From: a virus
Lineage: Duplodnaviria; Caudoviricetes
IMG/VR virus record: IMGVR_UViG_3300046820_001270
Span: 1 to 64,000 of that record
Reading direction: 5' to 3' (one strand)
DNA length: 64,000 nucleotides
Shown one piece after another: positions 11,229 through 37,071 of this stretch (positions are counted from its first letter, which is position 1; each line of letters begins with the position of its first letter). Made by a program: the position numbers and the translations under genes. The notes under the pieces are model-generated. The model saw nothing but the letters and a program-made list of their open reading frames with translations. It was not told the DNA's origin and did not search any database.

Positions 11229-13340
11229 ATGGCACTACAAAGAATAAATTGGACACAGATTGAGACGGAAAACGTCACACCAGGTACCACAATTGATCTC
11301 GGTTCGTCAACAACTCCATTAAATGCGGTCTACGCAGATAATTTATATGTTTCAGGAACAAGCTTAAGTAATTTGATTGCGGGTTCATCAGGTACTTCAG
11401 GATCTAATGGTACATCAGGTAATTCTGGTTCTTCAGGATCATCGGGTACTTCGGGATTACGTGGAGTCTCAGGATCTTCAGGATCTAGTGGTACATCTGG
11501 ATTTGGAACTTCAGGTTCGTCAGGTACATCAGGTCAAGATGGTTCTAATGGTTCTTCAGGTACGTCTGGATCTTCAGGAAATGGTACGTCAGGTACTTCA
11601 GGTGTGAGTGGTACTTCAGGAACATCAGGTTCGTCTGGTATTAGAGGTACTGCGGGTACTTCAGGTAGTTCAGGAACTTCAAGTAACGGAACATCAGGGT
11701 CTAGTGGTACATCAGGACAAAACGGTATTAATGGTGCCAACGGCCAAAATGGAACTTCAGGTTCTTCTGGATCGAACGGTACTTCAGGTACGTCAGGTCA
11801 AGATGGTTTAAATGGTAGTAATGGAACTAGTGGATCAAATGGAACAAATGGTACTAGTGGATCGAGCGGTACTAACGGATCTAGTGGTTCATCCGGTACG
11901 TCGGGTATTAGAGGTTCACACGGTACTTCAGGTACTTCAGGAAGTGTATATCAAACATCATCAACAACATACGTTTCAGATATTGATGAACATGACGGTG
12001 AAATATTACCACCATTTATTGTTGATGCTGGTTTGTCATATAGTGAAGGTCAGTTAGTTATTGCCGCATATGATGTAAACAATTATTTAATTGGTCGCGT
12101 TGTAAGTTATTTTGGAACAGAACTTACATTATTAATAGTAGATCATGCGGGTGGTAGTGGACACGATAGTTGGTCTATTAATTTGTATAGTGCAATTAGT
12201 GGAGGTGCCGGTGGATCTTCAACATTAAGAATTACCGATGGTACAACAACCGTTAACGGAGTTGATCAAATAACATTTGACGGAGCCGAAGTTACGGATA
12301 ACGGATTAGGTAATATAACAGTTACAATTATAGGAGGTGGTGGTGGCGGTGTTTCAGGTACTAACGGTACAAGTGGTTCTAATGGATCAAGTGGAACGTC
12401 AGGATCTAATGGATCATCAGGATCAAACGGAACGAATGGTTCTTCGGGAACTTCTGGTGTTACAGGTACAAGTGGTACGTCAGGTACTTCAGGTCCTGCC
12501 GGTGCTACAGGTACAAGTGGAACGTCCGGTTTGAATGGTACTAGTGGTACAAATGGTACAAGTGGTACAAATGGGACGTCCGGAACAGATGGTACAAGTG
12601 GTACTGATGGTTCTTCAGGTTCTAACGGAACAGACGGTACTTCAGGATCTAATGGTACTGATGGGTCTAGTGGTACATCAGGTACAGGTACAAATGGTAC
12701 TTCGGGTTCATCAGGTACATCCGCACCTGGTATAACATCAGGTACAAGTGGTACTGATGGTTATTCAGGTACCGATGGTTCTTCAGGATCTAGTGGATCA
12801 AACGGTACAGATGGTTCTAGTGGAACTTCAGGAGTTAATGGTACTAATGGTACGTCAGGTGTTAACGGAACAAGTGGTACCGATGGTTCTTCAGGAACTT
12901 CAGGTATTGGTATTAATGGTACATCAGGTACAAGTGGAACTGGCGGTGGTTCAGGAGTTTATGTTATAAAATTAGAATATAGTGCGGGTTCGTTAATATC
13001 TTCTCCATTTGTCGCAGCACAAGACCCACAAGGTAATACTATTACATCAGGTGCTGGTGGTTGGACATTTACAAGAGTTGGTGCAACTGAAGTGAGTGTA
13101 ACACATCCATTGGGTGTATGGGGAATAAATTTTATGACACATTCACAACTTGTTGGTGGTGATTTCTTAAGTAGAAATATGGGAGGAACAACAACAGGTC
13201 AATCGGTATGTGTACAAAATGCAGCAAAAACCTTAATGACGTTTAAAGCATTAGGACCTGGTTTTACCGGTGTATATGGAGTTGGATCGGTTGTTCAATA
13301 TATAACATGGCAAGTTCCTACAAATAATATTTATATATAA
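11229..13340 (+). CDS. Gly/Ser/Thr triplet-repeat fibre-like virion protein
   Basis: 703 aa with two long (G-S/T-S/N/D)n blocks separated by beta-rich spacers. Confidence 0.75.
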   Translation: MALQRINWTQIETENVTPGTTIDLGSSTTPLNAVYADNLYVSGTSLSNLIAGSSGTSGSNGTSGNSGSSGSSGTSGLRGVSGSSGSSGTSGFGTSGSSGTSGQDGSNGSSGTSGSSGNGTSGTSGVSGTSGTSGSSGIRGTAGTSGSSGTSSNGTSGSSGTSGQNGINGANGQNGTSGSSGSNGTSGTSGQDGLNGSNGTSGSNGTNGTSGSSGTNGSSGSSGTSGIRGSHGTSGTSGSVYQTSSTTYVSDIDEHDGEILPPFIVDAGLSYSEGQLVIAAYDVNNYLIGRVVSYFGTELTLLIVDHAGGSGHDSWSINLYSAISGGAGGSSTLRITDGTTTVNGVDQITFDGAEVTDNGLGNITVTIIGGGGGGVSGTNGTSGSNGSSGTSGSNGSSGSNGTNGSSGTSGVTGTSGTSGTSGPAGATGTSGTSGLNGTSGTNGTSGTNGTSGTDGTSGTDGSSGSNGTDGTSGSNGTDGSSGTSGTGTNGTSGSSGTSAPGITSGTSGTDGYSGTDGSSGSSGSNGTDGSSGTSGVNGTNGTSGVNGTSGTDGSSGTSGIGINGTSGTSGTGGGSGVYVIKLEYSAGSLISSPFVAAQDPQGNTITSGAGGWTFTRVGATEVSVTHPLGVWGINFMTHSQLVGGDFLSRNMGGTTTGQSVCVQNAAKTLMTFKALGPGFTGVYGVGSVVQYITWQVPTNNIYI

Positions 13341-13342
13341 AA

Positions 13343-16300
13343 ATGGCAAGACTAGAATCGTTACCAATTACATTAGTTGCTAGTATAAAACCTGGCAGTA
13401 TTACTACTAGTACATTTTATAATAATACTGGAAGTACTTATCATGGATATGGATATACATTTAATTGTACATTACAAGTAACAGCAACACTTACTTCAGA
13501 TGATAGAATTACACCAAATCAATTTATGTATGATGCATATTTTGTAAATGAAGGAATGTGGTTCGGTCAAAGTACTAATGGAGCATCTTATAAAATTATA
13601 AGTGTATCCACACCTACAAATGCATATGAAATTGATGTTGTTTTAAAAGATGTTGGTTTATATAATATATTATCTGACACTTCATTTAGTGGTTTTAATA
13701 CACCTAGTGAAGGTAATAACGGATTATTATTTTATTTATCCGATGATGGAGATCCAATATTAAGTGGATTACAATTGTTACAACCTTATTTACCTGACAT
13801 TAACTATTTTGTTAATGACATGTATGCAAAATTTCAATATAGAAATTTTACAACAACACACTATAATAATAACGATATCAATTTAGTATACGGTACAGGT
13901 TATAGTATTAATCAAATAGTTTATTTAAATTCAACTGGAACTTTTCAATTAGTTGATACAACTAATTCAAGTCAAGTTGAGAAATCTTTTGGTATTATTA
14001 CATCGGTTAATGAACCTGAAGATGGAAATATGACAGTTAAACCATTTGGTGAAATCAAAGGTGGTTTAACATTAACAGGATTTTCAATTGGAGATGTATT
14101 ATATTATGACGCAACCGCATCAAATACATCTTATGTTACGGATATAAAACCAACAACAAATCCATTACCTATTTACATTAAAATTAGTGATACCACAGGT
14201 TCATTAATTGGTGGTCAAACAAGTGGTGGAGGAGGTACAGGTGCATCAGGAACAAGTGGTACTTCAGGTACAGACGGTTCATCGGGAAGTAATGGTACAG
14301 ATGGTTCTAGTGGTACATCAGGTTCTAATGGTACCGATGGTTCTTCAGGTACAAGTGGTGTTGACGGAGTAAGTGGAACAAGTGGAACCAGTGGTTCTAA
14401 TGGAACCGACGGTTCCAGCGGTACGTCAGGATCAAATGGTACTGACGGTACTTCAGGTGTAGACGGAGTTTCCGGTACATCAGGTACAAGTGGTTCAGAT
14501 GGTACTTCAGGAGATAGTTTATTTAGTGAAGTATCACCGGGCGTATGGACAACAACAAATAATATTTTAATCACAGGATCTTTAAATGTTGATGGTACTG
14601 TTAATGCAAGAGAATTACATGTTACATATGAAACCTCTTCAGTAATGTATACGTCTGGATCAACAAAGTTCGGAAATACAATCGATGATACACATCAATT
14701 TACGGGATCTTTATTTATCTCAGGTTCGGTAAACATTACAAGTGGTAGTTTAGTTATAGATGGTGTTCCATTCTCAGCAATGACATCAGGAACATCAGGT
14801 TCTAATGGTACTGATGGTAGTTCAGGATCTAATGGTAGTGATGGTTCTTCAGGAACTAGTGGAGTAGACGGGGTATCAGGAACAAGTGGAACGTCAGGAT
14901 CAAATGGTACAGATGGTTCTTCGGGTTCTAGTGGTATTTCAGGAGTAGATGGTACTGACGGTTCTAGTGGTACTTCAGGTGTAGACGGAGTTTCCGGCAC
15001 ATCAGGTACTAGTGGATCAAATGGTACTGATGGTACCAGTGGTATTTCAGGAGTAGATGGTACTGACGGTTCTAGTGGTACTTCAGGTGTAGACGGAGTT
15101 TCAGGTACAAGCGGAACATCAGGTTCAAATGGTACGGATGGTACTAGTGGTATTTCGGGGGTGGATGGTACTGACGGTACTTCAGGAGATAGTTTATTTG
15201 CCGAAACTGGTAGTTTTTGGGCAACGACAAATGATATTCAAATAACGGGTTCATTAACTGTAGGTCAAGGTACCGGTGTTGTGAATTCTTATTTATTTTT
15301 AACGGATAGTAGTTCACTTATATTAACAAGTGGATCAAACATAATAGTAGAAAACGGTGGTTATATTACAGCAGCTTTCTTTGGTGATGGTGCGGGTTTA
15401 TATAACATACCAGCATCTGGTGTAACAGGATTAAATTTAAATTTAATTAGTAGTGGTAGTAATACTGCTTCTATTGGTTTAAATGGTTTTAACATTAATA
15501 CTAATACATCAATTACAGGTGCATTAAACGTTGATGGTATTATTACTGCGAGACAGTTAAATATTGATTACGTAAGTTCATCAATACTTTACACATCAGG
15601 TTCAACTAAGTTCGGTGACACCATTGACGACACTCACGAGTTTACAGGTTCATTGTTTATCAGTGGTTCTGTTAACATTTCAAGTGGTAGTTTAGTTATA
15701 GATGGTGTTCCATTCTCAGCAATGACATCAGGAACATCAGGTTCTAATGGTACGGATGGGACATCTGGTTCTAACGGAACGGATGGTAGTTCTGGATCTA
15801 ATGGTACGGACGGTTCTAGTGGTACATCGGGAGTTGATGGAGTATCAGGAACAAGTGGTACTTCAGGTTCTAACGGTACAGATGGTTCTTCAGGAAGTAA
15901 TGGTACTGACGGTTCATCAGGTTCTAGTGGTATTTCGGGGGTGGATGGTACTGACGGTTCTAGTGGTACGTCAGGTGTAGACGGAGTTTCCGGCACAAGT
16001 GGAACTTCAGGTAGTAATGGTACTGATGGTTCTTCAGGTTCCAGTGGTACAAGTGGGGTTGACGGAGTTTCCGGTACATCAGGTACATCAGGTTCTAACG
16101 GTACTGACGGATCTTCAGGTACTTCAGGAGATAGTTTATTTAGTGAAGTAACATCTGGTGTATGGGCAACAACAAATGATGTATTGATTACAGGTTCGTT
16201 ATTTGTATCTAATACAGTTTATGCTGAATCTGGATCGTTTAATTATGTTCATACAATTTACGAAACTGCTTCAGTTATTTACGGCAGCGGATCAACTAAA

Positions 16301-18589
16301 TTTGGAGACACATTTGATGATACTCATACATTTACAGGTTCAGTTAATATAACCGGTTCGATAACATTAAATGGACAAGCAATTGGTACAGGTAAGTTAG
16401 ACGAAACCGTATTTAATGATTACACGTCTTCGGTTACCTCATCATTCTCAGGTACATCATCATATGCAACATATGCTTTATACGCTGAAAACGCGGTTAT
16501 AGTATCGGGAGCCAACAAACAATTATATGTTTCTTCACCTTTAACGACATGGTCATTTACACATAACTTACATGAAAGATATCCTGTAATAAATGTTTTT
16601 GATGATAATGGTTACATTGTTGTACCTGAAACTATCAGATCAATTGATCAAGATAAAATTGAAGTATATTTTAATGTAGCTACAGCAGGACACGTAGTTG
16701 CATCTGTTGGTGGAGCGGGAACTTCAGGAACAAGTGGTTCAAACGGAACAGACGGTTCTTCAGGTTCTAGTGGATCAAACGGTACAGATGGATCTTCAGG
16801 AACTAGTGGTGTGGATGGTGTAAGTGGTACTAGTGGAACGTCAGGTTCTAACGGAACGGACGGAACATCAGGATCTAGTGGTATTTCAGGAATAGATGGA
16901 ACTGACGGAAGTTCAGGTACTTCAGGTGTGGATGGTGTAAGTGGCACTAGTGGTACTTCAGGTTCTAATGGTACAGATGGAACATCTGGTTCTAACGGAA
17001 CGGATGGTAGTTCGGGGTCTAATGGTACAGATGGAACTTCAGGTAGTAATGGTACTGATGGTAGTTCAGGATCTAGTGGTATTTCAGGGATTGACGGAAC
17101 AGACGGTTCTAGTGGTACAAGTGGGGTAGATGGAGTTTCCGGCACATCAGGTACTAGTGGATCAAATGGTACTGATGGTTCTTCAGGTTCTAGTGGTACA
17201 AGTGGGGTAGATGGTGTAAGTGGTACAAGTGGAACAAGTGGTTCTAATGGTACTGACGGTACGAGTGGAAGTAATGGTACTGATGGTAGTTCAGGTACTT
17301 CAGGAGATAGTTTATTTAGTGAGGTGTCTTCGGGAGTATGGACAACAACAAACGACGTATTAATTACAGGTTCTTTATATGTTTCAAATACAGTTCATGC
17401 GGAATCAGGTTCATTTAATTATATTCACACAATTTACGAAACTGCTTCAGTTATTTACAGTAGTGGATCTACCAAATTCGGAGATACTTTTGACGACACA
17501 CACAATTTTACGGGATCTGTTAATATAACAGGATCAATCACACTTAATGGTCAAGCGGTTGGTGTTGGTAAATTAGATGAAACAACATTTAATGCTTATA
17601 CATCTTCGGTTACGTCATCATTCTCAGGTACATCATCGTACGCAATATTTGCTGAAAATGCGGTGATCGTCTCAGGAGCTAACAAACAATTATATGTTTC
17701 TTCACCTTCAACAACTTGGTCTTTCACACACAATTTACATGAAAGGTACCCTGTTATAAATGTTTTTGATAGTAATGGATACATTGTAGTTCCTGAAACA
17801 ATAAGAAGTGTTAATCAAGATTTAATTGAGGTATATTTCAATACTCCCGAAACAGGTCATATTGTAGCATCGGTCGGTGGTGCGGGTACAAGTGGAACAA
17901 GTGGAAGTAATGGTACTGATGGATCTTCAGGATCTAACGGTACGGACGGTAGTTCTGGTACTTCAGGATCAAACGGTACAGATGGATCTAGTGGTAGTAA
18001 CGGAACGGACGGAACATCAGGATCTAATGGTACTGATGGTTCTTCAGGATCTAGTGGTATTTCGGGTATTGACGGAACAGACGGTTCTAGTGGTACAAGT
18101 GGGGTAGATGGAGTATCGGGTACAAGTGGTACATCAGGTTCTAATGGTACCGACGGTACATCAGGTGATAGTTTATTTGCTCAAACTGGATCTTTTTGGG
18201 CAACGACAAATGACATTCAAATTACAGGGTCTTTAGATGTTGATGGTATTATTACGGCAAGAGAAATACATACATCATACGTAACATCTTCAGTATTATA
18301 TGAATCTGGATCAACAAAATTCGGAGATACGTTAGACGACACACATCAATTTACAGGTTCATTATTAACTACAGGATCAGTAACAATTAATGGAGATTTA
18401 ATTGTAAATGGTACAACAACATTGACGGCAACAGATCCATTAAGAGAATCACTTATTATATCAGGAGCAATGGCGATGATGCAAGCTCAAATACAAGCAC
18501 AAATCGTTTCGGCATCTATATCAATGCAAGGACAACAAGTGATATTTAATCAAAATACGATTAATATAATGGATTTGGGAGGATTTTAA
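13343..18589 (+). CDS. Giant modular fibre protein (1748 aa) with Gly-X-Y repeat blocks and repeated globular modules
   Basis: Triplet blocks alternate with SGSTKFG(D/N)TxDDTHxFTGS modules (five copies) and WSFTHNL...YP modules (two copies). Ends IMDLGGF. Confidence 0.8.
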   Translation: MARLESLPITLVASIKPGSITTSTFYNNTGSTYHGYGYTFNCTLQVTATLTSDDRITPNQFMYDAYFVNEGMWFGQSTNGASYKIISVSTPTNAYEIDVVLKDVGLYNILSDTSFSGFNTPSEGNNGLLFYLSDDGDPILSGLQLLQPYLPDINYFVNDMYAKFQYRNFTTTHYNNNDINLVYGTGYSINQIVYLNSTGTFQLVDTTNSSQVEKSFGIITSVNEPEDGNMTVKPFGEIKGGLTLTGFSIGDVLYYDATASNTSYVTDIKPTTNPLPIYIKISDTTGSLIGGQTSGGGGTGASGTSGTSGTDGSSGSNGTDGSSGTSGSNGTDGSSGTSGVDGVSGTSGTSGSNGTDGSSGTSGSNGTDGTSGVDGVSGTSGTSGSDGTSGDSLFSEVSPGVWTTTNNILITGSLNVDGTVNARELHVTYETSSVMYTSGSTKFGNTIDDTHQFTGSLFISGSVNITSGSLVIDGVPFSAMTSGTSGSNGTDGSSGSNGSDGSSGTSGVDGVSGTSGTSGSNGTDGSSGSSGISGVDGTDGSSGTSGVDGVSGTSGTSGSNGTDGTSGISGVDGTDGSSGTSGVDGVSGTSGTSGSNGTDGTSGISGVDGTDGTSGDSLFAETGSFWATTNDIQITGSLTVGQGTGVVNSYLFLTDSSSLILTSGSNIIVENGGYITAAFFGDGAGLYNIPASGVTGLNLNLISSGSNTASIGLNGFNINTNTSITGALNVDGIITARQLNIDYVSSSILYTSGSTKFGDTIDDTHEFTGSLFISGSVNISSGSLVIDGVPFSAMTSGTSGSNGTDGTSGSNGTDGSSGSNGTDGSSGTSGVDGVSGTSGTSGSNGTDGSSGSNGTDGSSGSSGISGVDGTDGSSGTSGVDGVSGTSGTSGSNGTDGSSGSSGTSGVDGVSGTSGTSGSNGTDGSSGTSGDSLFSEVTSGVWATTNDVLITGSLFVSNTVYAESGSFNYVHTIYETASVIYGSGSTKFGDTFDDTHTFTGSVNITGSITLNGQAIGTGKLDETVFNDYTSSVTSSFSGTSSYATYALYAENAVIVSGANKQLYVSSPLTTWSFTHNLHERYPVINVFDDNGYIVVPETIRSIDQDKIEVYFNVATAGHVVASVGGAGTSGTSGSNGTDGSSGSSGSNGTDGSSGTSGVDGVSGTSGTSGSNGTDGTSGSSGISGIDGTDGSSGTSGVDGVSGTSGTSGSNGTDGTSGSNGTDGSSGSNGTDGTSGSNGTDGSSGSSGISGIDGTDGSSGTSGVDGVSGTSGTSGSNGTDGSSGSSGTSGVDGVSGTSGTSGSNGTDGTSGSNGTDGSSGTSGDSLFSEVSSGVWTTTNDVLITGSLYVSNTVHAESGSFNYIHTIYETASVIYSSGSTKFGDTFDDTHNFTGSVNITGSITLNGQAVGVGKLDETTFNAYTSSVTSSFSGTSSYAIFAENAVIVSGANKQLYVSSPSTTWSFTHNLHERYPVINVFDSNGYIVVPETIRSVNQDLIEVYFNTPETGHIVASVGGAGTSGTSGSNGTDGSSGSNGTDGSSGTSGSNGTDGSSGSNGTDGTSGSNGTDGSSGSSGISGIDGTDGSSGTSGVDGVSGTSGTSGSNGTDGTSGDSLFAQTGSFWATTNDIQITGSLDVDGIITAREIHTSYVTSSVLYESGSTKFGDTLDDTHQFTGSLLTTGSVTINGDLIVNGTTTLTATDPLRESLIISGAMAMMQAQIQAQIVSASISMQGQQVIFNQNTINIMDLGGF
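14739..15753 (+). repeat. 73-bp exact direct repeat (14739-14811 and 15681-15753)
   Basis: caagtggtagtttagttatagatggtgttccattctcagcaatgacatcaggaacatcaggttctaatggtac occurs twice, checked base by base. Confidence 0.9.
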
Positions 18590-18651
18590 TATATAATAAT
18601 AAAAAATATAAAAAATTGATAGAAATAACTCGAGGATCACAAAAAATTAAG

Positions 18652-18658
18652 TATTTAT
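18652..18658 (+). promoter_or_regulatory. TATTTAT motif (putative late promoter)
   Basis: AAGTATTTATA, 21 nt before the ATG at 18680. Confidence 0.55.
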
Positions 18659-18679
18659 AAACTAAACAAACAAACGTAG

Positions 18680-21600: not shown

Positions 21601-21871
21601 TTATAGTGGTACAACATTACAATTCAACACAGATAAATTCACAGTTGAATCAGCATCAGGAAACACAGTAATAGCGGGTACGTTAAAAGTAAGTGGAAAT
21701 GGAGCGGATGCAGGTACGAACACCTCAACTGTAACATACAAAAACTCAAGTGATGTATTTGGTGAGATTTCAGCAACATCTTCAAGTGTGGCGGTTACAT
21801 CAATGTTAGGATATAAAACATCTGACGGATCATTAACCTTCACAGATACAATCGACGGAGGAACATTCTAA
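18680..21871 (+). CDS. Fibre protein (1063 aa) with SGSNGT(N/D)GS repeat blocks
   Basis: N-terminus MAQIIKHRRG...GELIIATG, shared STKFGDT and WSFNHNL modules, C-terminus TIDGGTF. Confidence 0.8.
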   Translation: MAQIIKHRRGSISILKNTTARNGELIIATGSISDLSGPFIFIGSPVGTDEGVAGAFNAISKIYQGANAPSINAGTYGSGLDGTPFYASSEKKLYILNNSNVGNTSLNLVGNIEGNTISGVTITNLTGTTATFSSQVNVSGSLNVTGSLYINGTSYTAATSGTSGSNGTDGSSGTSGSNGTDGSSGSNGTNGSSGSSGSNGTNGSSGSNGTDGSSGSNGTDGSSGSSGSNGTNGSSGSSGSNGTDGSSGSNGTDGSSGSNGTNGSSGSSGSNGTNGSSGSNGTDGSSGTSGSNGTDGSSGSSGSNGTDGSSGSSGSNGTDGSSGSNGTNGSSGTSGDSLFALTGSIWSTTNSVRIVGALTSSVVSSSFVGDGAGLYNIPASGVTGLELNKIVSGSVSASIQSDGTFRVNGDTFINGTITANQLNINYVTSSVLYSSGSTKFGDTFDDLHEFTGSVNITGSLFLNGVTVGTGKLNTTDFNSYTSSVNSQFAGTSSFAVSSSYAVYAENAVIVSGQTKTLVIGSASTTWSFNHNLGYKYPAINVFDGSDKVVIPTEIEVIDSNNLKVYFNEAQTGTVIATVGGNGSSGSSGTAGTNGSSGSSGSNGTNGSSGSNGTDGSSGSSGSNGTNGSSGTSGSNGTDGSSGSSGSNGTDGSSGSNGTNGSSGSSGSNGTNGSSGSNGTDGSSGSSGSNGTNGSSGTSGSNGTNGSSGSNGTDGSSGSNGTDGSSGSSGSNGTNGSSGSSGSNGTDGSSGTSGSNGTNGSSGSSGSSGSNGTDGSSGTSGSNGTDGSSGTSVSVTGTNNFIGKFQSGATITLVDSSVVDNGTNVTVNSNLVVTGTTNIQGNTSVTGAFTVGSGSITSLGGDLFVSGNLQVLGSSTNVNIQSSTVAIGDNIILVNAYSPFQRYAGISGYDSGSADQSGSLLWDSTNNNWLTVDGSNNSSKVIGTTAGALGSETSLTSGTFPIASSDNTIGDSLLTYSGTTLQFNTDKFTVESASGNTVIAGTLKVSGNGADAGTNTSTVTYKNSSDVFGEISATSSSVAVTSMLGYKTSDGSLTFTDTIDGGTF

Positions 21872-21889
21872 AAATAGAATAAAATTAAT

Positions 21890-21920
21890 AAGGAGGACCC
21901 AAAAAGTCCTCCTTTTTTTT
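21890..21920 (+). terminator. Intrinsic terminator
   Basis: AAGGAGGAC-CCAAAAA-GTCCTCCTT followed by a T-run. Confidence 0.85.
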
Positions 21921-21961
21921 ATTCATATTAAAAAAATATTGTAATTTAAAACATTAAAAGA

Positions 21962-21968
21962 TATTTAT
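21962..21968 (+). promoter_or_regulatory. TATTTAT motif (putative late promoter)
   Basis: 4 nt before the ATG at 21973, downstream of a terminator. Confidence 0.5.
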
Positions 21969-21972
21969 TGGT

Positions 21973-24918
21973 ATGGCAACAACAATTCAAATCTTAACAA
22001 CAAATTATAGTGGTGAAACGGCCACTATTACCTTTTCACCATGTAGTGGAGGAACAATTAATTTAGGTTCACAAGTAATACCTTACAACTATGTAAGTGA
22101 AAATTACTTAGGTGATTATTCTTTATATTTTTCGGATTATGATCAAACATGTACTTTTACAATACCATGTTCGACACCAACTCCAACACCAACAGGTGAC
22201 CCAACTCCAACACCAACAATTGTTGTGACTGCTACACCTCTACCAACAGGAACCGCAACACCAACACCAACGGCAACTGATGTTCCACCAACACCAACGC
22301 CAACGGCTACAGAAGTACCAATACAATCATATGCTTACCAAATAGATGTTAGTGGGCAATATTTTGACCCTTATCAAGCGTGTCAAAATCAAGTAGTTAA
22401 TTACACTGTTTATACCTCTTATCCATCATTAAATACAGGACACATATTATATATTGATCCTGAACTTACTTCAGAGTATAATCCTGGATTAGGAAATTAC
22501 TTTATTATTGAAGATGCGTTTAATACATATGTTATTGATACAAATTATGGAGGAATAAATACCTTAACAAATTGTAATGACGTTCAACAACCCACACCAA
22601 CAGCAACTGCGACACCTACACCAACACCAACTGCAACTGAATATCCAATGGTACATTTAGGTTTAAGTGCCGATAATGGAAACACTGCGTGTGATAATCA
22701 TCTTTATAACTCATATAATGTCACAACTGAAGCTTTCGGATATAGTATGGGAACAAATTTATGTGATTCCAATGGAGTAACATTTACTGGAGTGGACATT
22801 ACAAATCTTGCAAATCCAACAGGTCTTCAATCAATATGGGTGTCTGATGGAACATATTCAAGATTCGGATGGTTAAATTCAATTGGTGTTGTTTTCTCAG
22901 GTTCAACATGTGTATTATGTGGATCTGCAACACCAACACCAACACCAACAGCTACAGATATTATAATTACACCAACTGTAAGTCAAGAACCAACTTCAAC
23001 TCCAACACCGACACCTACACAAACAGAAATGCCACCAACACATACACCAACACCAACACCAACACCAACTGTAAGTCAACAACCAACCCCAACACCAACA
23101 CCTACAAATAATCCTAATTCACCAACAACATTTAATGTATATGTTAGTGAAACGGGTGAGCAAATTGCATGTAATGGAGGAGATACACCTATGGGTGCTT
23201 TCCACCAATTTACAATTGTAGGTGATACAAATGATTTATGTTCATCAACACAATTTACTAATTGTTTTTTCATACCAACATATGATCTTTATACATTTTA
23301 TGTAAGTGATGGTACAAACTCTAGATTACTACAAAGAATAGGTGGAGTTTCAGGTACAACTGCAACTGCAATTGCAAGTTGTGAATTATGTGTTCCATTC
23401 CCAACGGCAACACCAACAGCAACACCAACCCCAACATTATTAATTACATCATTTAACGGTTTACAAATTTCTGGAGGATCAACTTTATACGAGGCTTGTC
23501 AAACTATTGGAACTAATAACGTATACGCAATCAATTCATTAAGTTTATATGATAATGGAATTTATTTGTATATCGATGAAACATTAACACAGGTTGCTCA
23601 AAATAATTATTTATATAAATTAATTTCGACAGATGGTTTAGACACCACATATATTGTAACAGTTGATGAGACAGGCATGATAACAAGTGTTAATGATTGT
23701 TCTACAATAAATCAACCAACACCTACGGCTACTAATGTACCACCAACGGGAACACCAACTAGTACCCCGGTACCACCAACTAGTACTCCTCATATTACAC
23801 CTCCACCACCAACTGTAAGTCCAACACCAACAGCTACAGATATTATAATTACACCAACTGTAAGTCAAGAACCAACTTCAACTCCAACTCCAACACCGAC
23901 ATCAACACCGGTATCATGTGAATGTCTTACAGTTTATAATGAGGGAGGTAGAAATATAACATTCCAATATGTTAGATGTTCAGATGGTATTTTAGTTCCA
24001 TTATCGGTTCCAAGAGGATCAAATAGAACGGTATGTGTACAGTCAGGTACTGATATAATATCTGACGACATTGGATTATTGACTGTGGTAGATAATGGAA
24101 CACCTTGTACTGTAAACGGCGACTGTGCAAACCCACCAACCGCAACACCTGTACCAGATCCAACATCAACTCCAGTACCACCACCAACTAGTACTCCAGT
24201 ACCACCACCAACTAGTACTCCAGTACCACCACCAACATCAACTCCAGTACCACCACCAACAGCAACACCAGATCAAACATCAAATTGGGTTAATATAACA
24301 ACACAATGTTATGGTTGTGATGTTTATTACATTCAAGAAGACCAAAATCCATATTCACCAACATACACTCAAACAAGACAAGGTTCATTAGTGGCAAGTA
24401 ACAGTGCTTCTTGTGGAGGATGTTGTGGTCAATCAACCGCAGCAAATTGGGTTAACGAAAGTACAGATTGTGATGGATTTACATTATATAATGTTCAAAG
24501 AGACACAAATAGTTGTTCAGCAACATATAATAATACAAGAAGAGGAAGTGATATAGCATACAATAGTCCAGCTTGTGGATATGTACCACCACCGACATCA
24601 ACACCGGTACCAGCACCAACACCAACACCTGGAACATCATATACATATCGATTAGGACCATCATACACATTGGCAAGCCAAGCATGTGGAAATTTCGGTA
24701 TGGATTTCTATACTGAAGTCTTCGCAGCAACGAATGTAATATATGAGGTACAACAATTCTTTACAGATTCTGGTTTAACAGCTCCATATTATGGAGAAAA
24801 TGAAACTCACGCATTTCAATTAATGGATGGAGCTTTACCAATTGGTATCTCATATTCAGGAAGAATTTCATACACAGGACAGGTATCGGATAGAACATTC
24901 TGTGCGGAACAACCTTAA
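21973..24918 (+). CDS. Pro/Thr-rich (mucin-like) multidomain surface/virion protein with Cys-containing domains
   Basis: PTPTPT and PPPTSTPV linkers separate about five related xAC-containing domains (YQACQ, TACDN, IACNG, EACQT, QACGN). Confidence 0.8.
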   Translation: MATTIQILTTNYSGETATITFSPCSGGTINLGSQVIPYNYVSENYLGDYSLYFSDYDQTCTFTIPCSTPTPTPTGDPTPTPTIVVTATPLPTGTATPTPTATDVPPTPTPTATEVPIQSYAYQIDVSGQYFDPYQACQNQVVNYTVYTSYPSLNTGHILYIDPELTSEYNPGLGNYFIIEDAFNTYVIDTNYGGINTLTNCNDVQQPTPTATATPTPTPTATEYPMVHLGLSADNGNTACDNHLYNSYNVTTEAFGYSMGTNLCDSNGVTFTGVDITNLANPTGLQSIWVSDGTYSRFGWLNSIGVVFSGSTCVLCGSATPTPTPTATDIIITPTVSQEPTSTPTPTPTQTEMPPTHTPTPTPTPTVSQQPTPTPTPTNNPNSPTTFNVYVSETGEQIACNGGDTPMGAFHQFTIVGDTNDLCSSTQFTNCFFIPTYDLYTFYVSDGTNSRLLQRIGGVSGTTATAIASCELCVPFPTATPTATPTPTLLITSFNGLQISGGSTLYEACQTIGTNNVYAINSLSLYDNGIYLYIDETLTQVAQNNYLYKLISTDGLDTTYIVTVDETGMITSVNDCSTINQPTPTATNVPPTGTPTSTPVPPTSTPHITPPPPTVSPTPTATDIIITPTVSQEPTSTPTPTPTSTPVSCECLTVYNEGGRNITFQYVRCSDGILVPLSVPRGSNRTVCVQSGTDIISDDIGLLTVVDNGTPCTVNGDCANPPTATPVPDPTSTPVPPPTSTPVPPPTSTPVPPPTSTPVPPPTATPDQTSNWVNITTQCYGCDVYYIQEDQNPYSPTYTQTRQGSLVASNSASCGGCCGQSTAANWVNESTDCDGFTLYNVQRDTNSCSATYNNTRRGSDIAYNSPACGYVPPPTSTPVPAPTPTPGTSYTYRLGPSYTLASQACGNFGMDFYTEVFAATNVIYEVQQFFTDSGLTAPYYGENETHAFQLMDGALPIGISYSGRISYTGQVSDRTFCAEQP
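22939..23888 (+). repeat. 68-bp exact direct repeat (22939-23006 and 23821-23888)
   Basis: ccaacaccaacagctacagatattataattacaccaactgtaagtcaagaaccaacttcaactccaac occurs twice (encodes PTPTATDIIITPTVSQEPTSTP). Confidence 0.85.
24154..24270 (+). repeat. 24-bp tandem repeat encoding PPPTSTPV (about 4-5 units)
   Basis: ccaccaccaactagtactccagta units, two identical and the others degenerate. Confidence 0.8.
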
Positions 24919-24949
24919 TAAAAAATAAAATAAATTAAAATAAAATAAA

Positions 24950-25120
24950 ATGGGACATAGATTTAAAGTAGAATATCAAGTAGGTGAAGAAAAAATAATA
25001 TTTCATTGTGGTGCCTTTAGTAATTCAATAGAAGAATCACTAAACATAGCAACAATAGAGATAAACAAATATGTCGAAAGACAGGAAGGAACTGTCCTTT
25101 CAATCGAAAATGTACAATAA
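24950..25120 (+). CDS. 56-aa hypothetical protein (not in ORF track)
   Basis: Hand translation MGHRFKVEYQVGEEKIIFHCGAFSNSIEESLNIATIEINKYVERQEGTVLSIENVQ*; A-rich upstream region; followed by a terminator. Confidence 0.65.
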   Translation: MGHRFKVEYQVGEEKIIFHCGAFSNSIEESLNIATIEINKYVERQEGTVLSIENVQ

Positions 25121-25127
25121 AAACATC

Positions 25128-25157
25128 AAAGGAGACCTTAAATAAGTCTCCTTTTTT
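25128..25157 (+). terminator. Intrinsic terminator
   Basis: AAAGGAGAC-CTTAAATAA-GTCTCCTTT plus TTT. Confidence 0.85.
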
Positions 25158-25169
25158 ATTTATTAAATG

Positions 25170-25176
25170 TATTTAT
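25170..25176 (+). promoter_or_regulatory. TATTTAT motif (putative late promoter; second copy at 25157-25163)
   Basis: ATGTATTTATA followed by two hairpins and the ATG at 25238. Confidence 0.5.
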
Positions 25177-25237
25177 AATAAGACCTACATAGGTCTTTAA
25201 CCGTGATATATATCACAAGGATTTAGAACACATATAT

Positions 25238-28200
25238 ATGAGTCAAATAGTAAAACTACGTAGAAGTTCCACAGGTGGAAATAGACCTACTAACTCCCAA
25301 TTACAATTAGGAGAATTAGCAATAAACACAACCGATGGTAAAATTTATTTCTCCAAATCGGGGTCATTAAACACCTCAATTGAGGAAGTTTTAACTACAA
25401 ATACTCAAAACACAGGTTCATTAAATCTTAGTGGTAGTTTCAATTTAATTGGAGCGGAAAATATAACCGGATCTTTAATCACAACAGGTTCTCTAAGAGT
25501 TTTAGGGGATACATCATTAACGTCATTAGTCGTATCAGGTTCAGACCCCGTTGCAAATGTTCAAGCATTTGTTCCCGATAGTACTGTATACAATAATGCA
25601 AGTTTTAATAGTCCAGATAGAGTCGCTTCGGGTATTCGTTTTAATTGGAGTAATGAAAACTGGACTATAGGTGCCGCAAGAGGTTTAACAACTGATGTTG
25701 ATGGTTTGGTGTTTAGTAGAAATGGTGTTAGACAAATGTTACTCGATGAGAATAATAATTTAGTTCTTTCAGGTTCAATTAATTTAACAGGGTCTATATA
25801 TGTTAATGGTGCGGTTGTTGGAACAGGTAAATTAGATGAAACAACATTTAATACATATACAGGTTCAAATACATCTACATTTGCAGGAACATCATCATAT
25901 GCATCATATGCATTAACAGCTTCTTATGTATCAAACCCAACAATAGTTTCAGGTTCAACAAAGAAAACAACGGTAACATCAGCTTCAACAACATGGTCGT
26001 TGAATCATGCGATGAACGAAAGATATCCATCAATTACAGTATTTGATAGTGATGGTTATGTTGTCATACCAACAGGTGTTAGAGCAATAGATTCAAATAA
26101 TATTGAAGTATATTTTTCAGAGGCACAAACAGGAACAGTAATTGCAACTGTCGGTGGTAGTGGTGCAGTTGGTGCAACAGGTGCCTCAGGTACAAATGGT
26201 ACTTCAGGAACAAGTGGAGCAGACGGTATTGGTGGTTACACACAAACATATGCATCAGCAACAACTTGGTCAGTTGCACACAATTTAGATTTAGATTATC
26301 CAGGTGTAACGGTTTGGGATAGTAATAGAAAAGTTATAATCCCAAGTGAGATAACATCAATAGATTCAAACAATTTACAAATAACATTCCCAATTGCACA
26401 AGCGGGGGAAGTTCATATAGTTAGAGGTGGACACATGATTAGTGGTTCACAAGATTTATCTGCAGTTGGAACAATAACACCATCCGCAAATGGTTTATAT
26501 AATTTAGGTAGTGTATCTAAACAATTTAATAATGTTTATATTTCAGGTAGTCTTTTAGTAAATGGAGTACCATATAGTAGTGGACAAAATATAGATACAA
26601 GTTCATTCGCAACAACAGGTTCAAATACATTTAAAGGAACACAAACATTTAGTGGATCATTAATACCTGTTGGTAGTGGTTCATATGATTTAGGTAGTGA
26701 GTCAAATCCATTTAGACACTTATACTTATCAAGTGCATCATTATATATTGATGGACAAAAAGTTTTAGGTTCAACAAATCAGGAATTACAAATCACAACA
26801 GATAATGGACAATCTATTAAGATTTTAGAGCAAGGTACTGATACAATTACATTTCAAACTGTGGATGGAGATATTCAATTGAAGTCATCCGGTGGAGGTA
26901 ATATATTAATTGATCCAACAACAGGTTCGGTCGATATTAGAGGAAATGTTATAGTTCAAGATGGATTTAAAATATTAAGTTCAGGTGGTAATAGTGTTGT
27001 TTTTGCTGATGACATTATTGTATCAGGTTCGGCTAATTTCACAAATGGAGTTACAATTGGTGGAGTATCATATGCATCGGCAACATCTGGTACATCCGGT
27101 TCTAACGGAACAAATGGTTCTTCAGGAACTAGTGGAAGTAACGGATCATCAGGAACATCAGGGTCTAACGGAACAAATGGATCTAGTGGAACGAATGGTT
27201 CTTCAGGTTCTAACGGAACAAATGGAACTAGTGGAACGAATGGTACGTCAGGTTCTAACGGAACAAATGGTTCTTCAGGTACATCAGTAACTGTTTCCGG
27301 TACTAATGATGTAATAGGTAAATTTAGTTCAGGAACATTAGTTAATTCAAACATAACTGACAACGCTTCATTAGTTAATATTAATTCAAACACAACAATA
27401 ACAGGATCATTGACGATTACACAAAACTTAAATGTTTTGGGATCTTCGTCAATTACTTATACAACTGCATCTCAATTAAGAGTAAACGACAACGTAATCA
27501 CAGTAAACGCTTCATCACCAGGTGTAAGATTTGCGGGTCTGTCGGTAATTGATAGTGGTTCATCACCTTTGGTTTCGGGTTCATTCTTGTTTGACTCATT
27601 AAACAATCAATTTGTTTATGTTCACACAAACCAATCTACGGTGACATCATCGGTAGTTATGGTAGGTGCACAGACTTATAATAGTTTAGGAAACGAAATA
27701 TTACCAACAACAAATAGAGTATTAAAATCTTTAGGTCAAGAACATCTTGGTGATTCAAATATCTCAGATAACGGTACGACAGTATCTATTAATGGAGGTT
27801 TAATTGTAACAGGTTCTATCTTATCAACAGTTACTCCATTAGTTTCAGGTTCTTCACAAATATCATTTAATGGTATAACAGATAAACCAAGTTTAGTTAG
27901 TGGATCATCACAAATAGTTTATTCAGGTTTAACAGGAATACCTTCAGGTATTGTATCGGGTTCATTACAAGTTGATGTAATGTCAACAACAAACATTGCG
28001 AGATTGGCAACAACCGGTTCTAATACATTTACGGCAAATCAAAATATTAGTACAACAAGAACAAATGGTTCTAATACAAATGTACTTACATTATCTGATA
28101 ATGTAACAGGAGTTCAAACTCCTGGATTTGGTTTGAGAATACAATATCAATCAAATGGGACAGGTGTTAATGCTGCTATAGGTTTAGAAAATGGCGGAGG

Positions 28201-28594
28201 AGGTACAAATAACGAATCACAAATTTCATTGTATACTCAAAATACTGCAGGAGCATTAACTAGACAAGTATTAGTAGGTTCAACGGGTAATCTAACCGTT
28301 ACTGGAACTATTACCGAAAACTCATCATTACGATATAAAGAAAATGTTGAAACTATTAAATATGGTTTGGATAAAGTTCTTCAAATGAGAGGTGTTACAT
28401 ATGATAAAAAGGATAATGGTGTGAAGGAAATGGGTGTAATTGCAGAAGAAATTCATGAAGTTTTACCTGAAGTAGTTTTGAAAAATGAAGAAGGTGATAT
28501 AGATTCGGTTTCGTATGGTAGAATTACCGCAGTATTGATTGAAGCCATAAAAGATTTAAAGAAAGAAATTGAAGAATTAAAGGCAAATAAATAA
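25238..28594 (+). CDS. Tail fibre protein with C-terminal intramolecular chaperone (peptidase S74)
   Basis: N-term IVKLRRS...GELAINTTDGKIYF; Gly-X-Y blocks; C-term SSLRYKENV...RGVTY...MGVIAEE...SVSYGRITAVLIEAIKDL coiled coil. Confidence 0.88.
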   Translation: MSQIVKLRRSSTGGNRPTNSQLQLGELAINTTDGKIYFSKSGSLNTSIEEVLTTNTQNTGSLNLSGSFNLIGAENITGSLITTGSLRVLGDTSLTSLVVSGSDPVANVQAFVPDSTVYNNASFNSPDRVASGIRFNWSNENWTIGAARGLTTDVDGLVFSRNGVRQMLLDENNNLVLSGSINLTGSIYVNGAVVGTGKLDETTFNTYTGSNTSTFAGTSSYASYALTASYVSNPTIVSGSTKKTTVTSASTTWSLNHAMNERYPSITVFDSDGYVVIPTGVRAIDSNNIEVYFSEAQTGTVIATVGGSGAVGATGASGTNGTSGTSGADGIGGYTQTYASATTWSVAHNLDLDYPGVTVWDSNRKVIIPSEITSIDSNNLQITFPIAQAGEVHIVRGGHMISGSQDLSAVGTITPSANGLYNLGSVSKQFNNVYISGSLLVNGVPYSSGQNIDTSSFATTGSNTFKGTQTFSGSLIPVGSGSYDLGSESNPFRHLYLSSASLYIDGQKVLGSTNQELQITTDNGQSIKILEQGTDTITFQTVDGDIQLKSSGGGNILIDPTTGSVDIRGNVIVQDGFKILSSGGNSVVFADDIIVSGSANFTNGVTIGGVSYASATSGTSGSNGTNGSSGTSGSNGSSGTSGSNGTNGSSGTNGSSGSNGTNGTSGTNGTSGSNGTNGSSGTSVTVSGTNDVIGKFSSGTLVNSNITDNASLVNINSNTTITGSLTITQNLNVLGSSSITYTTASQLRVNDNVITVNASSPGVRFAGLSVIDSGSSPLVSGSFLFDSLNNQFVYVHTNQSTVTSSVVMVGAQTYNSLGNEILPTTNRVLKSLGQEHLGDSNISDNGTTVSINGGLIVTGSILSTVTPLVSGSSQISFNGITDKPSLVSGSSQIVYSGLTGIPSGIVSGSLQVDVMSTTNIARLATTGSNTFTANQNISTTRTNGSNTNVLTLSDNVTGVQTPGFGLRIQYQSNGTGVNAAIGLENGGGGTNNESQISLYTQNTAGALTRQVLVGSTGNLTVTGTITENSSLRYKENVETIKYGLDKVLQMRGVTYDKKDNGVKEMGVIAEEIHEVLPEVVLKNEEGDIDSVSYGRITAVLIEAIKDLKKEIEELKANK

Positions 28595-29478: not shown

Positions 29479-29479
29479 T

Positions 29480-30343: not shown

Positions 30344-30362
30344 TAAAAAAATTAAATAACTA

Positions 30363-31226: not shown

Positions 31227-31231
31227 ATATA

Positions 31232-31939: not shown

Positions 31940-31945
31940 AAAATT

Positions 31946-37070: not shown

Positions 37071-37071
37071 A

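What the first reader, a model, noticed from the sequence alone, without database searches (positions are those of the whole stretch)
11229..28594. Proline-free collagen-like (Gly-X-Y)n fibres made of Ser/Thr/Asn/Asp
Seen: in four genes Gly recurs every third residue over long blocks (GTS GSN GTD GSS), with Pro almost absent. Established: Gly-X-Y periodicity underlies collagen triple helices and polyproline-II bundles; glycosylated Thr stabilises some Pro-poor collagens, and the Bacillus BclA collagen region is O-glycosylated. Inference: these stalks may need sugar decoration to fold or resist proteases, which would explain the adjacent enzyme island.
Basis: partly seen in the sequence, partly recalled or inferred. 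Interest (0 to 1): 0.72.

Follow-up and report, generated by a model that had tools for sequence, protein, structure and literature searches.

The report
Proline-free collagen-like phage tail fibres
Four fibre genes of a 334-kb uncultured lake phage carry long collagen-type Gly-X-Y stalks made of Ser, Thr, Asn and Asp with no proline; this stalk type is common but unstudied, and a protein-serine sugar transferase encoded further along the same genome probably sugar-coats it.

Summary
ORFs A, B, C and E (11229-21871 and 25238-28594) contain 511 Gly-X-Y triplets in runs of up to 71. Only 1 of the 1022 X/Y residues is Pro. X is Thr or Ser and Y is Ser, Asn or Asp. The fifth gene in the interval (21973-24918) has no Gly-X-Y and is 12% Pro.

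These are phage fibre proteins. They match Pfam Collagen and PHROG tail-fibre families, and E ends in a Peptidase_S74 chaperone. The stalks are modular, and their length varies between orthologues.

The conserved GT7/radical-SAM cassette also occurs in a 93%-complete relative that has no collagen-like gene. A different enzyme tracks these stalks: a TibC/Aah-type protein-serine heptosyltransferase. In this genome it lies 4.7 kb past the window end, directly before a fifth such fibre gene. In 29 of 79 viral loci it is followed at once by a proline-free Gly-X-Y gene. The cultured Microcystis phage Mel-JY01 shows the same pairing.

Neither the triple helix nor the sugars are shown, and a need for sugar in folding is untested. 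The scan has noted this stalk type before in at least five other genomes and next door in this one. Verdict: a new variant of phage collagen-like fibres.

The parts
11229..13340 (+). Fibre protein A, 703 aa. Gly-X-Y blocks lie at 11382-11948 (four sub-blocks with small register shifts), 12339-12689 and 12741-12962. Globular middle and C-terminal domains.
   Evidence: PF01391, E 2e-44; PHROG tail fibre families; block coordinates.
13343..18589 (+). Fibre protein B, 1748 aa. Five Gly-X-Y blocks (14231-14518, 14789-15193, 15731-16135, 16709-17311, 17876-18172) alternate with 90-190-aa knob and Ig-like modules, like beads on a string.
   Evidence: (PF01391, E 2e-86, 14 stretches).
18680..21871 (+). 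Fibre protein C, 1063 aa. Its N-terminus has an IKHRRG...GEL motif. Gly-X-Y blocks lie at 19160-19690 (59 triplets) and 20414-21052 (71 triplets).
   Evidence: (PF01391, E 8e-56).
21973..24918 (+). Protein D, 981 aa. It is not collagen-like: it has TPTPTP-type Pro/Thr linkers between Cys-rich domains and is 11.9% Pro. It serves as an internal control showing that the phage does not avoid Pro codons.
   Evidence: no Pfam match; homologues between the fibre genes of relatives.
25238..28594 (+). Fibre protein E, 1118 aa. Gly-X-Y blocks lie at 26153-26242 (10 triplets, between two Ig-like domains) and 27089-27286 (22 triplets). The C-terminal Peptidase_S74 intramolecular chaperone is at 28322-28480, preceded by SSLRYK.
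   Evidence: PF13884, 48 bits against cut-off 22; PF01391; trimer model of residues 596-770.
28594..33595 (+). Five small proteins share an N-terminal motif (MA-x-LKN-x-T...QRP...RYN). Three of them have a ConA/LamG-like domain. They are probably fibre-associated binding proteins, not enzymes.
33631..39936 (+). Start of the enzyme island: methyltransferase (33631-34362), a 285-aa protein with an invariant AD-x-DEF motif (34355-35212), and three GT7-like transferases (35212-36660, 37277-38527, 38524-39936). The methyltransferase, the 285-aa protein, two GT7 enzymes and a radical-SAM gene form a cassette conserved in 80 viral loci, whether or not Gly-X-Y genes are present.

Best explanation
A, B, C and E are subunits of long homotrimeric fibres of a jumbo phage, most likely tail fibres. 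Their Gly-X-Y tracts form collagen-type triple-helical rods that act as rigid spacers of adjustable length between trimeric knob, Ig-like and tip domains. If fully helical, the rods would be about 27-190 nm long per protein at 0.286 nm per residue. Capping sequences are conserved: NGTSYTAATSG or VGG-x-G before each tract, and SGDSLF or SGTSVTVSGTN after it. Trimerising flanks set the register, and in E these include the S74 chaperone. The proline-free G-[T/S]-[S/N/D] make-up is a common class in environmental phages. Its Ser residues are probably O-glycosylated in the host cytoplasm by the phage's own GT4-FkbM-TibC/Aah-type heptosyltransferase fusion, encoded 40 kb downstream beside a fifth such fibre gene. 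Shown here: the repeat, its positional rule, its modular evolution, the fibre homology and the enzyme-fibre gene pairing. Inferred: the triple helix (about 70%), glycosylation of these four proteins (about 45-50%), and any stabilising role of the sugar (about 25%).
For: Repeat statistics and the strict X/Y asymmetry: T 223 at X against 5 at Y, N+D 8 at X against 211 at Y.
The periodicity is kept although the DNA repeats are only 61-91% alike. Gly uses four codons and Ser uses both the TCN and AGY families.
All four proteins match PF01391, E carries S74, and all match PHROG tail-fibre families.
The same proline-free rule holds in 31 of the 120 best homologues and in about 55 of 80 unrelated viral loci, with runs of up to 786 triplets.
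At homologous sites in orthologues a block varies from 4 to 32 triplets, and whole block-plus-knob modules come and go.
Three copies of E 596-770 modelled with ESMFold2 scored 0.78 against 0.00 for the best of 3 controls. That mark was reached by 21 of 30 proteins solved as pairs of one chain and by 0 of 23 solved as single chains. The calibration used two copies, not three. The runs agree in at least 80% of contacts, and the partner's pLDDT is at least 59. The confident interface covers residues 90-175 of the segment, which is the domain right after the tract.
On the same contig, L220 16374-19376 is a 1000-aa GT4 + FkbM + TIGR04414 protein (281 bits, cut-off 200). The next gene is a Collagen + S74 fibre.
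The four iron-finger Cys are invariant in the phage enzymes (compare PMC4358343).
Of 79 viral loci with this enzyme, 51 hold a Gly-X-Y gene. In 29 it is the next gene downstream on the same strand, 50-80 bp away, with no Pro and X close to 100% Ser/Thr.
In Microcystis phage Mel-JY01 the enzyme (317 bits) lies 1.7 kb from a roughly 1016-aa Gly-X-Y ORF.
Across whole records, 4 of 6 with Ser/Thr-type tracts carry the enzyme and 0 of 7 without them do. A relative that lacks the enzyme has a Pro-rich collagen-like protein instead.
TibC modifies Ser, not Thr (PMC4358343).
Against: No structure or chemistry is available for this repeat class.
Ser, Asn and Asp at Y rank low on the host-guest collagen propensity scale (my recollection of Persikov et al. 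2000). PMC7824840 gives only the range: replacing Hyp at Y costs 0-21 degrees C.
The heptosyltransferase is 40 kb from genes A-E and adjoins a different fibre gene.
Two records with Ser/Thr-type tracts lack the enzyme. One is 86% complete (G008) and the other 40% complete (G014), so the enzyme is either not obligatory or lies in unassembled parts.
The records are related to one another and mostly fragments, so the 2x2 table is weak (one-sided Fisher p about 0.02-0.05, not corrected for relatedness).
Known substrates of this enzyme family are beta-helical autotransporter repeats, not collagen.
Confidence: 0.55

Rival explanations
1. The tracts form the same collagen-type rods but are unmodified. 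Stability comes from length, the trimeric flanking domains, side-chain and water hydrogen-bond networks, and the cool habitat. The heptosyltransferase serves only its neighbouring fibre or some other target.
For: Recombinant bacterial collagens longer than about 150 residues level off at a Tm of 36-39 degrees C with little dependence on sequence (PMC7824840). The prophage collagen EPclA melts at 42 degrees C with no modification (PMC3368898). G008 (86% complete) has an 82-triplet Ser/Thr-type tract and no TIGR04414 match. The enzyme lies 40 kb from A-E.
Against: The enzyme and a Gly-X-Y fibre gene are paired tightly (50-80 bp apart) in 29 of 79 loci, including an unrelated cyanophage. The studied stable bacterial collagens do contain Pro or charge pairs; these tracts have neither.
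Confidence: 0.25
2. The adjacent GT7/radical-SAM island (33631 onward) exists to decorate the Gly-X-Y stalks.
For: The island lies between the fibre genes and the heptosyltransferase-plus-fifth-fibre pair. About half of 80 loci with the conserved cassette have a Gly-X-Y gene within 10 kb upstream.
Against: G006 (310,691 bp, 93% complete) keeps the cassette and three GT7 matches but has no Collagen match anywhere. Five further fragments (43-60% complete, 106-199 kb) carry the cassette without any Gly-X-Y. Mel-JY01 has a long Ser/Thr tract and no GT7 match. Similar fibre-plus-glycosyltransferase islands in pelagimyophages were read as modifying the host surface (PMC7029224).
Confidence: 0.15
3. 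The tracts are not helical rods. They are flexible, disordered Gly/Ser-type tethers, possibly mucin-like when glycosylated, that give the fibres reach.
For: Gly/Ser-rich sequences are classic flexible linkers (general knowledge). Neither structure model gave a confident structure for the tracts.
Against: Gly falls at exactly every third residue, without a break, for up to 71 triplets here and 786 elsewhere, despite diverged DNA. The X/Y asymmetry is strict and shared across unrelated phages. The capping motifs are conserved. A disordered tether needs none of these.
Confidence: 0.12
4. The tracts fold into another ordered glycine-dependent structure, such as a polyglycine-II helix bundle like those of snow-flea antifreeze protein or T-even gp38 adhesins.
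For: Gly falls at every third residue with small polar side chains. Such bundles occur in phage adhesins (general knowledge; preprint 10.1101/2023.11.25.568672 is listed but was not read in detail).
Against: Those bundles need short helices joined by turns. The tracts here run up to 213 residues with no turn-like break and vary freely in length. The tracts sit within proteins of trimeric context.
Confidence: 0.04

Closest known systems
Bacteriophage collagen: Gly-X-Y tracts in phage tail-fibre genes (Smith et al. 1998, cited in PMC1079782; for example Prochlorococcus phage P-SSM2 orf028)
   Same: Long Gly-X-Y runs sit inside tail-fibre candidates of large aquatic myoviruses and are read as trimeric rods. 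In P-SSM2 orf028, X and Y are often Pro, Ser or Thr.
   Different: Pro is absent here (1 in 1022), positions are strictly partitioned (T/S at X, S/N/D at Y), and the tracts come as multiple modules per protein.
EPclA/EPclB, prophage collagen-like tail-fibre proteins of E. coli O157:H7 (PMC3368898)
   Same: This is the only phage-type collagen shown experimentally to be a trimeric triple helix (Tm 42 degrees C). It is also flanked by phage-fibre trimerisation domains.
   Different: EPclA has Pro at about half of its X positions plus Asp/Glu-Lys/Arg pairs. The tracts here have no Pro, Lys or Glu and carry a net negative charge.
BclA exosporium glycoprotein of Bacillus anthracis/cereus (PMC8968730)
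   Same: It is a microbial collagen-like stalk that is O-glycosylated, with the sugars thought to help hydration and stability.
   Different: BclA repeats are Gly-Pro-Thr (my recollection), with Thr at Y and Pro at X. Here Thr is at X, Pro is absent, and the candidate enzyme family modifies Ser.
TibC/TibA and Aah/AIDA-I autotransporter heptosyltransferases (BAHT, TIGR04414; PDB 4RAP, 4RB4; PMC4358343)
   Same: The phage enzyme scores above the equivalog cut-off and keeps the four iron-finger Cys. Like TibC, it is encoded next to a repetitive Ser-rich surface adhesin gene.
   Different: The phage enzyme is fused to GT4 and FkbM domains and is encoded by a virus. Its candidate substrate is a collagen-like tract, not a beta-helix. 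Its activity and sugar donor are untested.
Host recognition cluster of pelagimyophages and cyanomyophages (PMC7029224)
   Same: Tail fibres with collagen repeats, ConA-like and Mtd-like domains are interleaved with glycosyltransferases and radical-SAM cassettes.
   Different: That paper attributes the enzymes to modification of the host surface. It does not describe the proline-free repeat class or the heptosyltransferase-fibre pairing.
Giant-virus collagen-like proteins with viral glycosylation, such as Mimivirus (as summarised in PMC8968730)
   Same: A virus encodes both collagen-like proteins and the enzymes that glycosylate them.
   Different: The Mimivirus system hydroxylates and glycosylates Lys in a eukaryotic host. 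Here there is no Lys, the host is bacterial, and the enzyme family is different.

Membership tests
Collagen triple helix repeat proteins (Pfam PF01391; bacterial and phage collagen-like proteins) | Uninterrupted Gly at every third residue over long runs | tested here: met
   Runs of 22-71 triplets against at most 9 in shuffles. Only A has small register shifts.
Collagen triple helix repeat proteins (Pfam PF01391; bacterial and phage collagen-like proteins) | Profile match above Pfam's gathering score | tested here: met
   A 149.6, B 283.9, C 186.1 and E 38.7 bits against a cut-off of 27.2.
Collagen triple helix repeat proteins (Pfam PF01391; bacterial and phage collagen-like proteins) | Substantial Pro (imino acid) content at X/Y, or charge pairs, as in all members shown to fold | tested here: not met
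   1 Pro in 1022 X/Y positions, with 0 Lys, 0 Glu and 3 Arg.
Collagen triple helix repeat proteins (Pfam PF01391; bacterial and phage collagen-like proteins) | Three parallel chains wound into a triple helix | not testable with these tools
   The trimer model places only the flanking domain with confidence. The AF2 monomer is uninformative at pLDDT 33.6.
Collagen triple helix repeat proteins (Pfam PF01391; bacterial and phage collagen-like proteins) | An adjoining trimerisation domain | tested here: met
   E has an S74 chaperone. Three copies of E 596-770 scored 0.78 against a control of 0.00, with the interface in residues 685-770.
Phage fibres/spikes with a C-terminal intramolecular chaperone (Peptidase_S74) | PF13884 domain at the C-terminus, above cut-off | tested here: met
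   E residues 1029-1081, 48 bits against a cut-off of 22.
Phage fibres/spikes with a C-terminal intramolecular chaperone (Peptidase_S74) | Ser...Lys self-cleavage motif just before the domain | tested here: inconclusive
   E reads SSLRYK where the relative L015 reads SDERLK. The S-x-x-R-x-K pattern is recalled from memory and was not checked against a reference.
Substrates of TibC/Aah-type heptosyltransferases (BAHT) | A BAHT enzyme encoded in the same genome | tested here: met
   L220 16374-19376 on the window's contig matches TIGR04414 at 281 bits against a cut-off of 200. The four Cys are invariant.
Substrates of TibC/Aah-type heptosyltransferases (BAHT) | Substrate gene adjacent to the enzyme gene | tested here: not met
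   The adjacent gene is a fifth fibre outside the window. A-E lie 40-57 kb upstream. The pairing holds for the repeat class as a whole (29 of 79 loci).
Substrates of TibC/Aah-type heptosyltransferases (BAHT) | Heptose on Ser residues of the repeats | not testable with these tools
   This needs mass spectrometry.
BclA-type glycosylated collagen (Gly-Pro-Thr repeats) | Thr at the Y position as sugar acceptor, Pro at X | tested here: not met
   Thr fills 5 of 511 Y positions and Pro 1 of 511 X positions.
Polyglycine-II helix bundle domains | Short Gly-rich helices joined by turns within one chain | tested here: not met
   The tracts run unbroken for up to 213 residues, and their length varies freely between orthologues.

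The most novel reading that the evidence does not exclude
These phages build collagen triple helices with no proline at all. The helices become stable, or protease-proof, only because a virus-encoded TibC/Aah-type enzyme loads their serines with heptose in the host cytoplasm. That would be a third route to collagen stabilisation, after hydroxyproline and charge pairs, and it would be a widespread virion glycosylation system in phages of Gram-negative bacteria and cyanobacteria. The relative that lacks the enzyme and has a Pro-rich collagen-like protein instead (G007) would fit such a trade-off.
Probability: 0.25. Interest if true: 0.85.

Novelty: new variant of a known kind. Interest (0 to 1): 0.6.

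Why it matters
Collagen-like tracts in phage fibres have been known since 1998, but every microbial collagen shown to fold contains proline or charge pairs. This class has neither. It reaches hundreds of triplets, is common in environmental phages, and has a strict positional code (T/S at X, S/N/D at Y) that runs against the standard propensity scale.

If it is a triple helix, it widens the sequence rules for collagen and offers very simple building blocks for designed fibres. If the serines are heptosylated by the paired enzyme, phage virion glycosylation would extend well beyond mycobacteriophages. It would also bear on host recognition, particle stability and the reading of the large "host recognition clusters" of aquatic jumbo phages. 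The cultured phage Mel-JY01 makes the question testable.

Tried and rejected
- **Identifying the phage:** Megablast of 12 kb against cultured phages found nothing. Protein searches with flanking genes and with a GT7 gene against cultured phages also found nothing. No whole genome is held for the window.
- **AF2 monomer:** B residues 1070-1536 without an alignment gave pLDDT 33.6, which says nothing about any fold.
- **Trimer job:** It passed for the segment, but no residue of the Gly-X-Y tract except one appears in the confident interface. It therefore gives no verdict on the triple helix itself.
- **Alignment A1:** The four-sequence alignment for that job was too shallow and gappy, and I did not use it.
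- **PDB sequence searches:** They returned only generic animal collagens and one fibril chain (8zxl/9ius) whose repeats contain Pro (GAPGSQGAPGLQ). No structural precedent was found.
- **Pfam on the non-repeat domains at E up to 1:** Only a sub-threshold Mtd_N hint at the N-terminus of E (E 0.12).
- **GT7/radical-SAM cassette as the explanation for the stalks:** Rejected as the main link after the whole-record checks.
- **Slippage only:** I considered whether the repeat is a recent DNA slippage product under no protein selection. I rejected this because the units are only 61-91% alike, codon use is mixed, and the Gly phase is unbroken.
- **Proline avoidance through base composition:** Rejected, because the neighbouring gene D has 117 Pro.
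- **Literature:** Searches for proline-free phage collagen, for a phage BAHT and for Mel-JY01 found no description.
Full report
**Observation.** All genes in the region lie on the + strand. The interval 11229-28594 holds five large ORFs, and four of them (A, B, C, E) carry long Gly-X-Y blocks totalling 511 triplets in runs of at least five. The longest runs are 39, 67, 71 and 22 triplets, whereas 500 shuffles of each protein never exceed 9. Pro fills 1 of 1022 X/Y positions, while the non-repeat parts of the same proteins contain 67 Pro. The fifth gene in the interval (D, 21973-24918) has 117 Pro and no Gly-X-Y, so base composition does not explain the absence of Pro.

The positions are sharply partitioned. 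Thr is 223 at X against 5 at Y, Asn+Asp is 8 against 211, and Val+Ile is 53 against 2. The blocks contain no Lys or Glu and only 3 Arg, and 97 Asp give them a net negative charge. At the DNA level the repeats are degenerate: 61-91% matches, with periods of 18-108 nt, mostly 27, 36, 63 or 72. Gly uses four codons, and Ser uses both the TCN and AGY families. The Gly phase is never lost despite this divergence, which points to selection on the protein rather than recent slippage.

**What the genes are.** All four match Pfam Collagen far above threshold, and E ends in a Peptidase_S74 intramolecular chaperone. PHROG places them in tail-fibre and "collagen like minor tail" families. tblastn links the C-terminus of E to the long tail fibre proteins of cyanophages and of Vibrio and Rhizobium phages.

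The window belongs to a 334-kb contig of an uncultured phage with no close cultured relative. Upstream lie NusG-like, AAA, thioredoxin and glutaredoxin genes. Downstream come five small proteins with a shared N-terminal motif, three of them with a LamG domain. Only then does the enzyme island begin at 33631, with a methyltransferase, three GT7-like transferases, many radical-SAM enzymes and others.

**Anatomy and evolution.** The fibres are modular. Each Gly-X-Y block begins after a conserved cap (NGTSYTAATSG, or an Ig-like domain ending in VGG-x-G). Each block ends in SGDSLF plus a roughly 90-aa knob, in SGTSVTVSGTN, or in SGTTTITNAVDN.

Orthologues in related IMG/VR contigs keep the caps but change block length. 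The block between the two Ig-like domains of E has 10 triplets here, 4 in L012 and about 32 in L010. Whole block-plus-knob modules are present or absent. This is the behaviour expected of spacer rods whose length is tuned. At the canonical collagen rise of 0.286 nm per residue, the tracts would add about 109, 190, 112 and 27 nm to A, B, C and E. That figure is an inference.

**Trimer evidence.** Three copies of E 596-770 were modelled with ESMFold2. The score was 0.78 against 0.00 for the best of 3 controls. That mark was reached by 21 of 30 proteins solved as pairs of one chain and by 0 of 23 solved as single chains, in a calibration that used two copies rather than three. The runs agree in at least 80% of contacts, and the partner's pLDDT is at least 59. 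The confident interface lies in the domain immediately after the tract. The tract itself is not placed, so the triple helix remains an inference from periodicity, the X/Y code, the trimeric context and family resemblance.

**How common is the class?** Among the 120 best homologues of C, the 31 that carry at least 10 triplets all have zero Pro and follow the same X/Y rule. In the 80 loci returned, about 55 have X = Ser/Thr and Y = Ser (with some Asn/Asp) and 0-2 Pro, with runs of up to 786 triplets. The repeat class is therefore widespread in uncultured viruses. The scan's own earlier notes report it in at least five other genomes. I found no paper that describes it. Described phage collagens are Pro-containing: EPclA has Pro at about half of its X positions, and P-SSM2 orf028 has Pro, Ser and Thr.

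**Testing the sugar idea: the adjacent island.** The core cassette (methyltransferase, a 285-aa protein with an invariant AD-x-DEF motif, two GT7 enzymes and a radical-SAM gene) is conserved in 80 viral loci. About half have a Gly-X-Y gene within 10 kb upstream and half do not.

Whole-record searches decide the matter. G006 (310,691 bp, 93% complete) has three GT7 matches and no Collagen match at all. Five more fragments of 106-199 kb carry the cassette without any Gly-X-Y. Conversely, Mel-JY01 has a long Ser/Thr tract and no GT7 match. The adjacent GT7/radical-SAM enzymes are therefore not explained by the stalks.

**Testing the sugar idea: the heptosyltransferase.** Earlier notes of this scan pointed to TibC/Aah-type heptosyltransferases, and I tested that lead. 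Fetching the window's own contig beyond its end (L220; window coordinate = L220 coordinate + 52334) shows a 1000-aa protein at window-equivalent 68,708-71,710. It combines GT4, FkbM methyltransferase and TIGR04414 domains (281 bits, curated cut-off 200). It is followed 62 bp later by a fifth Pro-free Gly-X-Y fibre with an S74 domain. The cap region of that fibre is 69% identical to the cap of E.

The four iron-finger Cys of TibC are invariant in the phage enzymes (PMC4358343). A profile of the phage enzymes finds 454 viral stretches. Of the best 79 loci, 51 hold a Gly-X-Y gene. In 29 it is the very next gene on the same strand, 50-80 bp downstream, with no Pro and X close to 100% Ser/Thr.

The cultured Microcystis phage Mel-JY01 repeats the pairing. 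Its CDS annotated "methyltransferase FkbM" contains the TIGR04414 domain (317 bits). It lies 1.7 kb downstream of a roughly 1016-aa Gly-X-Y open frame that the record annotates on the wrong strand.

Across whole records, the enzyme is present in 4 of 6 records with Ser/Thr-type tracts and in 0 of 7 without them. One enzyme-negative relative, G007, has a Pro-rich collagen-like protein instead. These records are related to one another and mostly incomplete, so the table is only suggestive. The operon-like adjacency is the stronger evidence. TibC transfers heptose to Ser, not Thr (PMC4358343), and Ser makes up 54% of Y and 40% of X here.

**Verdict on the interpretation.** The collagen-like fibre reading is supported. 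Sugar decoration is plausible and now rests on a specific candidate enzyme, though that enzyme adjoins a different fibre gene 40 kb away. Nothing tests a requirement of sugar for folding or protease resistance. The analogy to glycosylated Thr at Y (BclA and, from my own recollection, worm cuticle collagen) does not fit, because Thr sits at X. Long bacterial collagens reach similar stability whatever their sequence (PMC7824840), and the habitat is cool, so unmodified rods remain a serious rival. A disordered Gly/Ser tether is made unlikely by the unbroken phase, the positional code and the conserved caps.

**Novelty.** The kind is known: phage collagen-like fibres, and fibre-plus-glycosyltransferase "host recognition clusters" (PMC7029224). 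Three things appear undescribed: the proline-free polar variant, its strict positional code, and its genomic pairing with a protein-serine heptosyltransferase. All three can be tested in a cultured phage.

Noticed in passing
L097 1-3052 (GenBank PP395634.1, Microcystis phage Mel-JY01): A + strand open frame of about 1016 aa, made mostly of GTS/GSS/GTR/GTD triplets, runs from the first bases of the record. The record annotates two hypothetical proteins on the opposite strand there, so the collagen-like gene seems to be missed, and it may continue across the record's ends.
   Followed up: partly
window 21973-24918: Protein D has repeated TPTPTP-type linkers between Cys-rich domains of about 100 residues and matches no Pfam family. 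Homologues sit between the fibre genes of related phages. Pro/Thr linkers are classic O-glycosylation sites in secreted bacterial enzymes.
   Followed up: no
window 28594-33595: Five consecutive small proteins begin with the same motif (MA-x-LKN-x-T...LP-x-G...QRP...G-x-RYN), and three of them continue into a LamG/ConA-like domain. They look like interchangeable fibre-tip or baseplate binding proteins.
   Followed up: no
window 34355-35212: The 285-aa protein with no family match keeps an invariant AD-x-DEF motif and an HFKW motif across 80 viral loci. It is probably a GT-A-type glycosyltransferase that the profile libraries miss.
   Followed up: partly
window 11229-28594, Gly-X-Y blocks: Nearly every Y-position Asn is followed by Gly and then Ser/Thr, giving 127 N-G-[S/T] sequons in the four proteins. 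These are potential sites for cytoplasmic N-glycosyltransferases and also the dipeptide most prone to deamidation. The 115 Asp-Gly pairs could partly reflect the same chemistry over evolutionary time.
   Followed up: no
L301 342-3473 (G007, a 269-kb relative, 81% complete): This relative has no TibC/Aah-type enzyme in the assembled part. Its collagen-like protein is of a different type: X is Asn or Pro (102 Pro in 248 triplets) and Y is Gln or Thr.
   Followed up: partly
L161 (IMGVR_UViG_3300034062_003964): One open frame has 786 uninterrupted Gly-[T/S]-[S/N] triplets with no Pro. As a triple helix it would be about 0.67 micrometres long.
   Followed up: no
L001, L002, L003 and other metagenome contigs: Contigs of related phages often end inside or just after the Gly-X-Y fibre genes. 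Assemblies seem to break at these repeats, so such genes will be under-counted in surveys.
   Followed up: no
window 24919-25237: The 319-bp gap between D and E holds a possible 57-codon ORF and a GC-rich hairpin followed by a T run (GGAGACCTTAAATAAGTCTCC TTTTTT), which looks like an intrinsic terminator. E and the LamG genes may therefore be a separate transcription unit.
   Followed up: no
window 54579-55802: A RuBisCO large-subunit-like protein (PF00016, E 9e-33) sits inside the enzyme island, next to a carbamoyltransferase and an APS-kinase-like gene.
   Followed up: no
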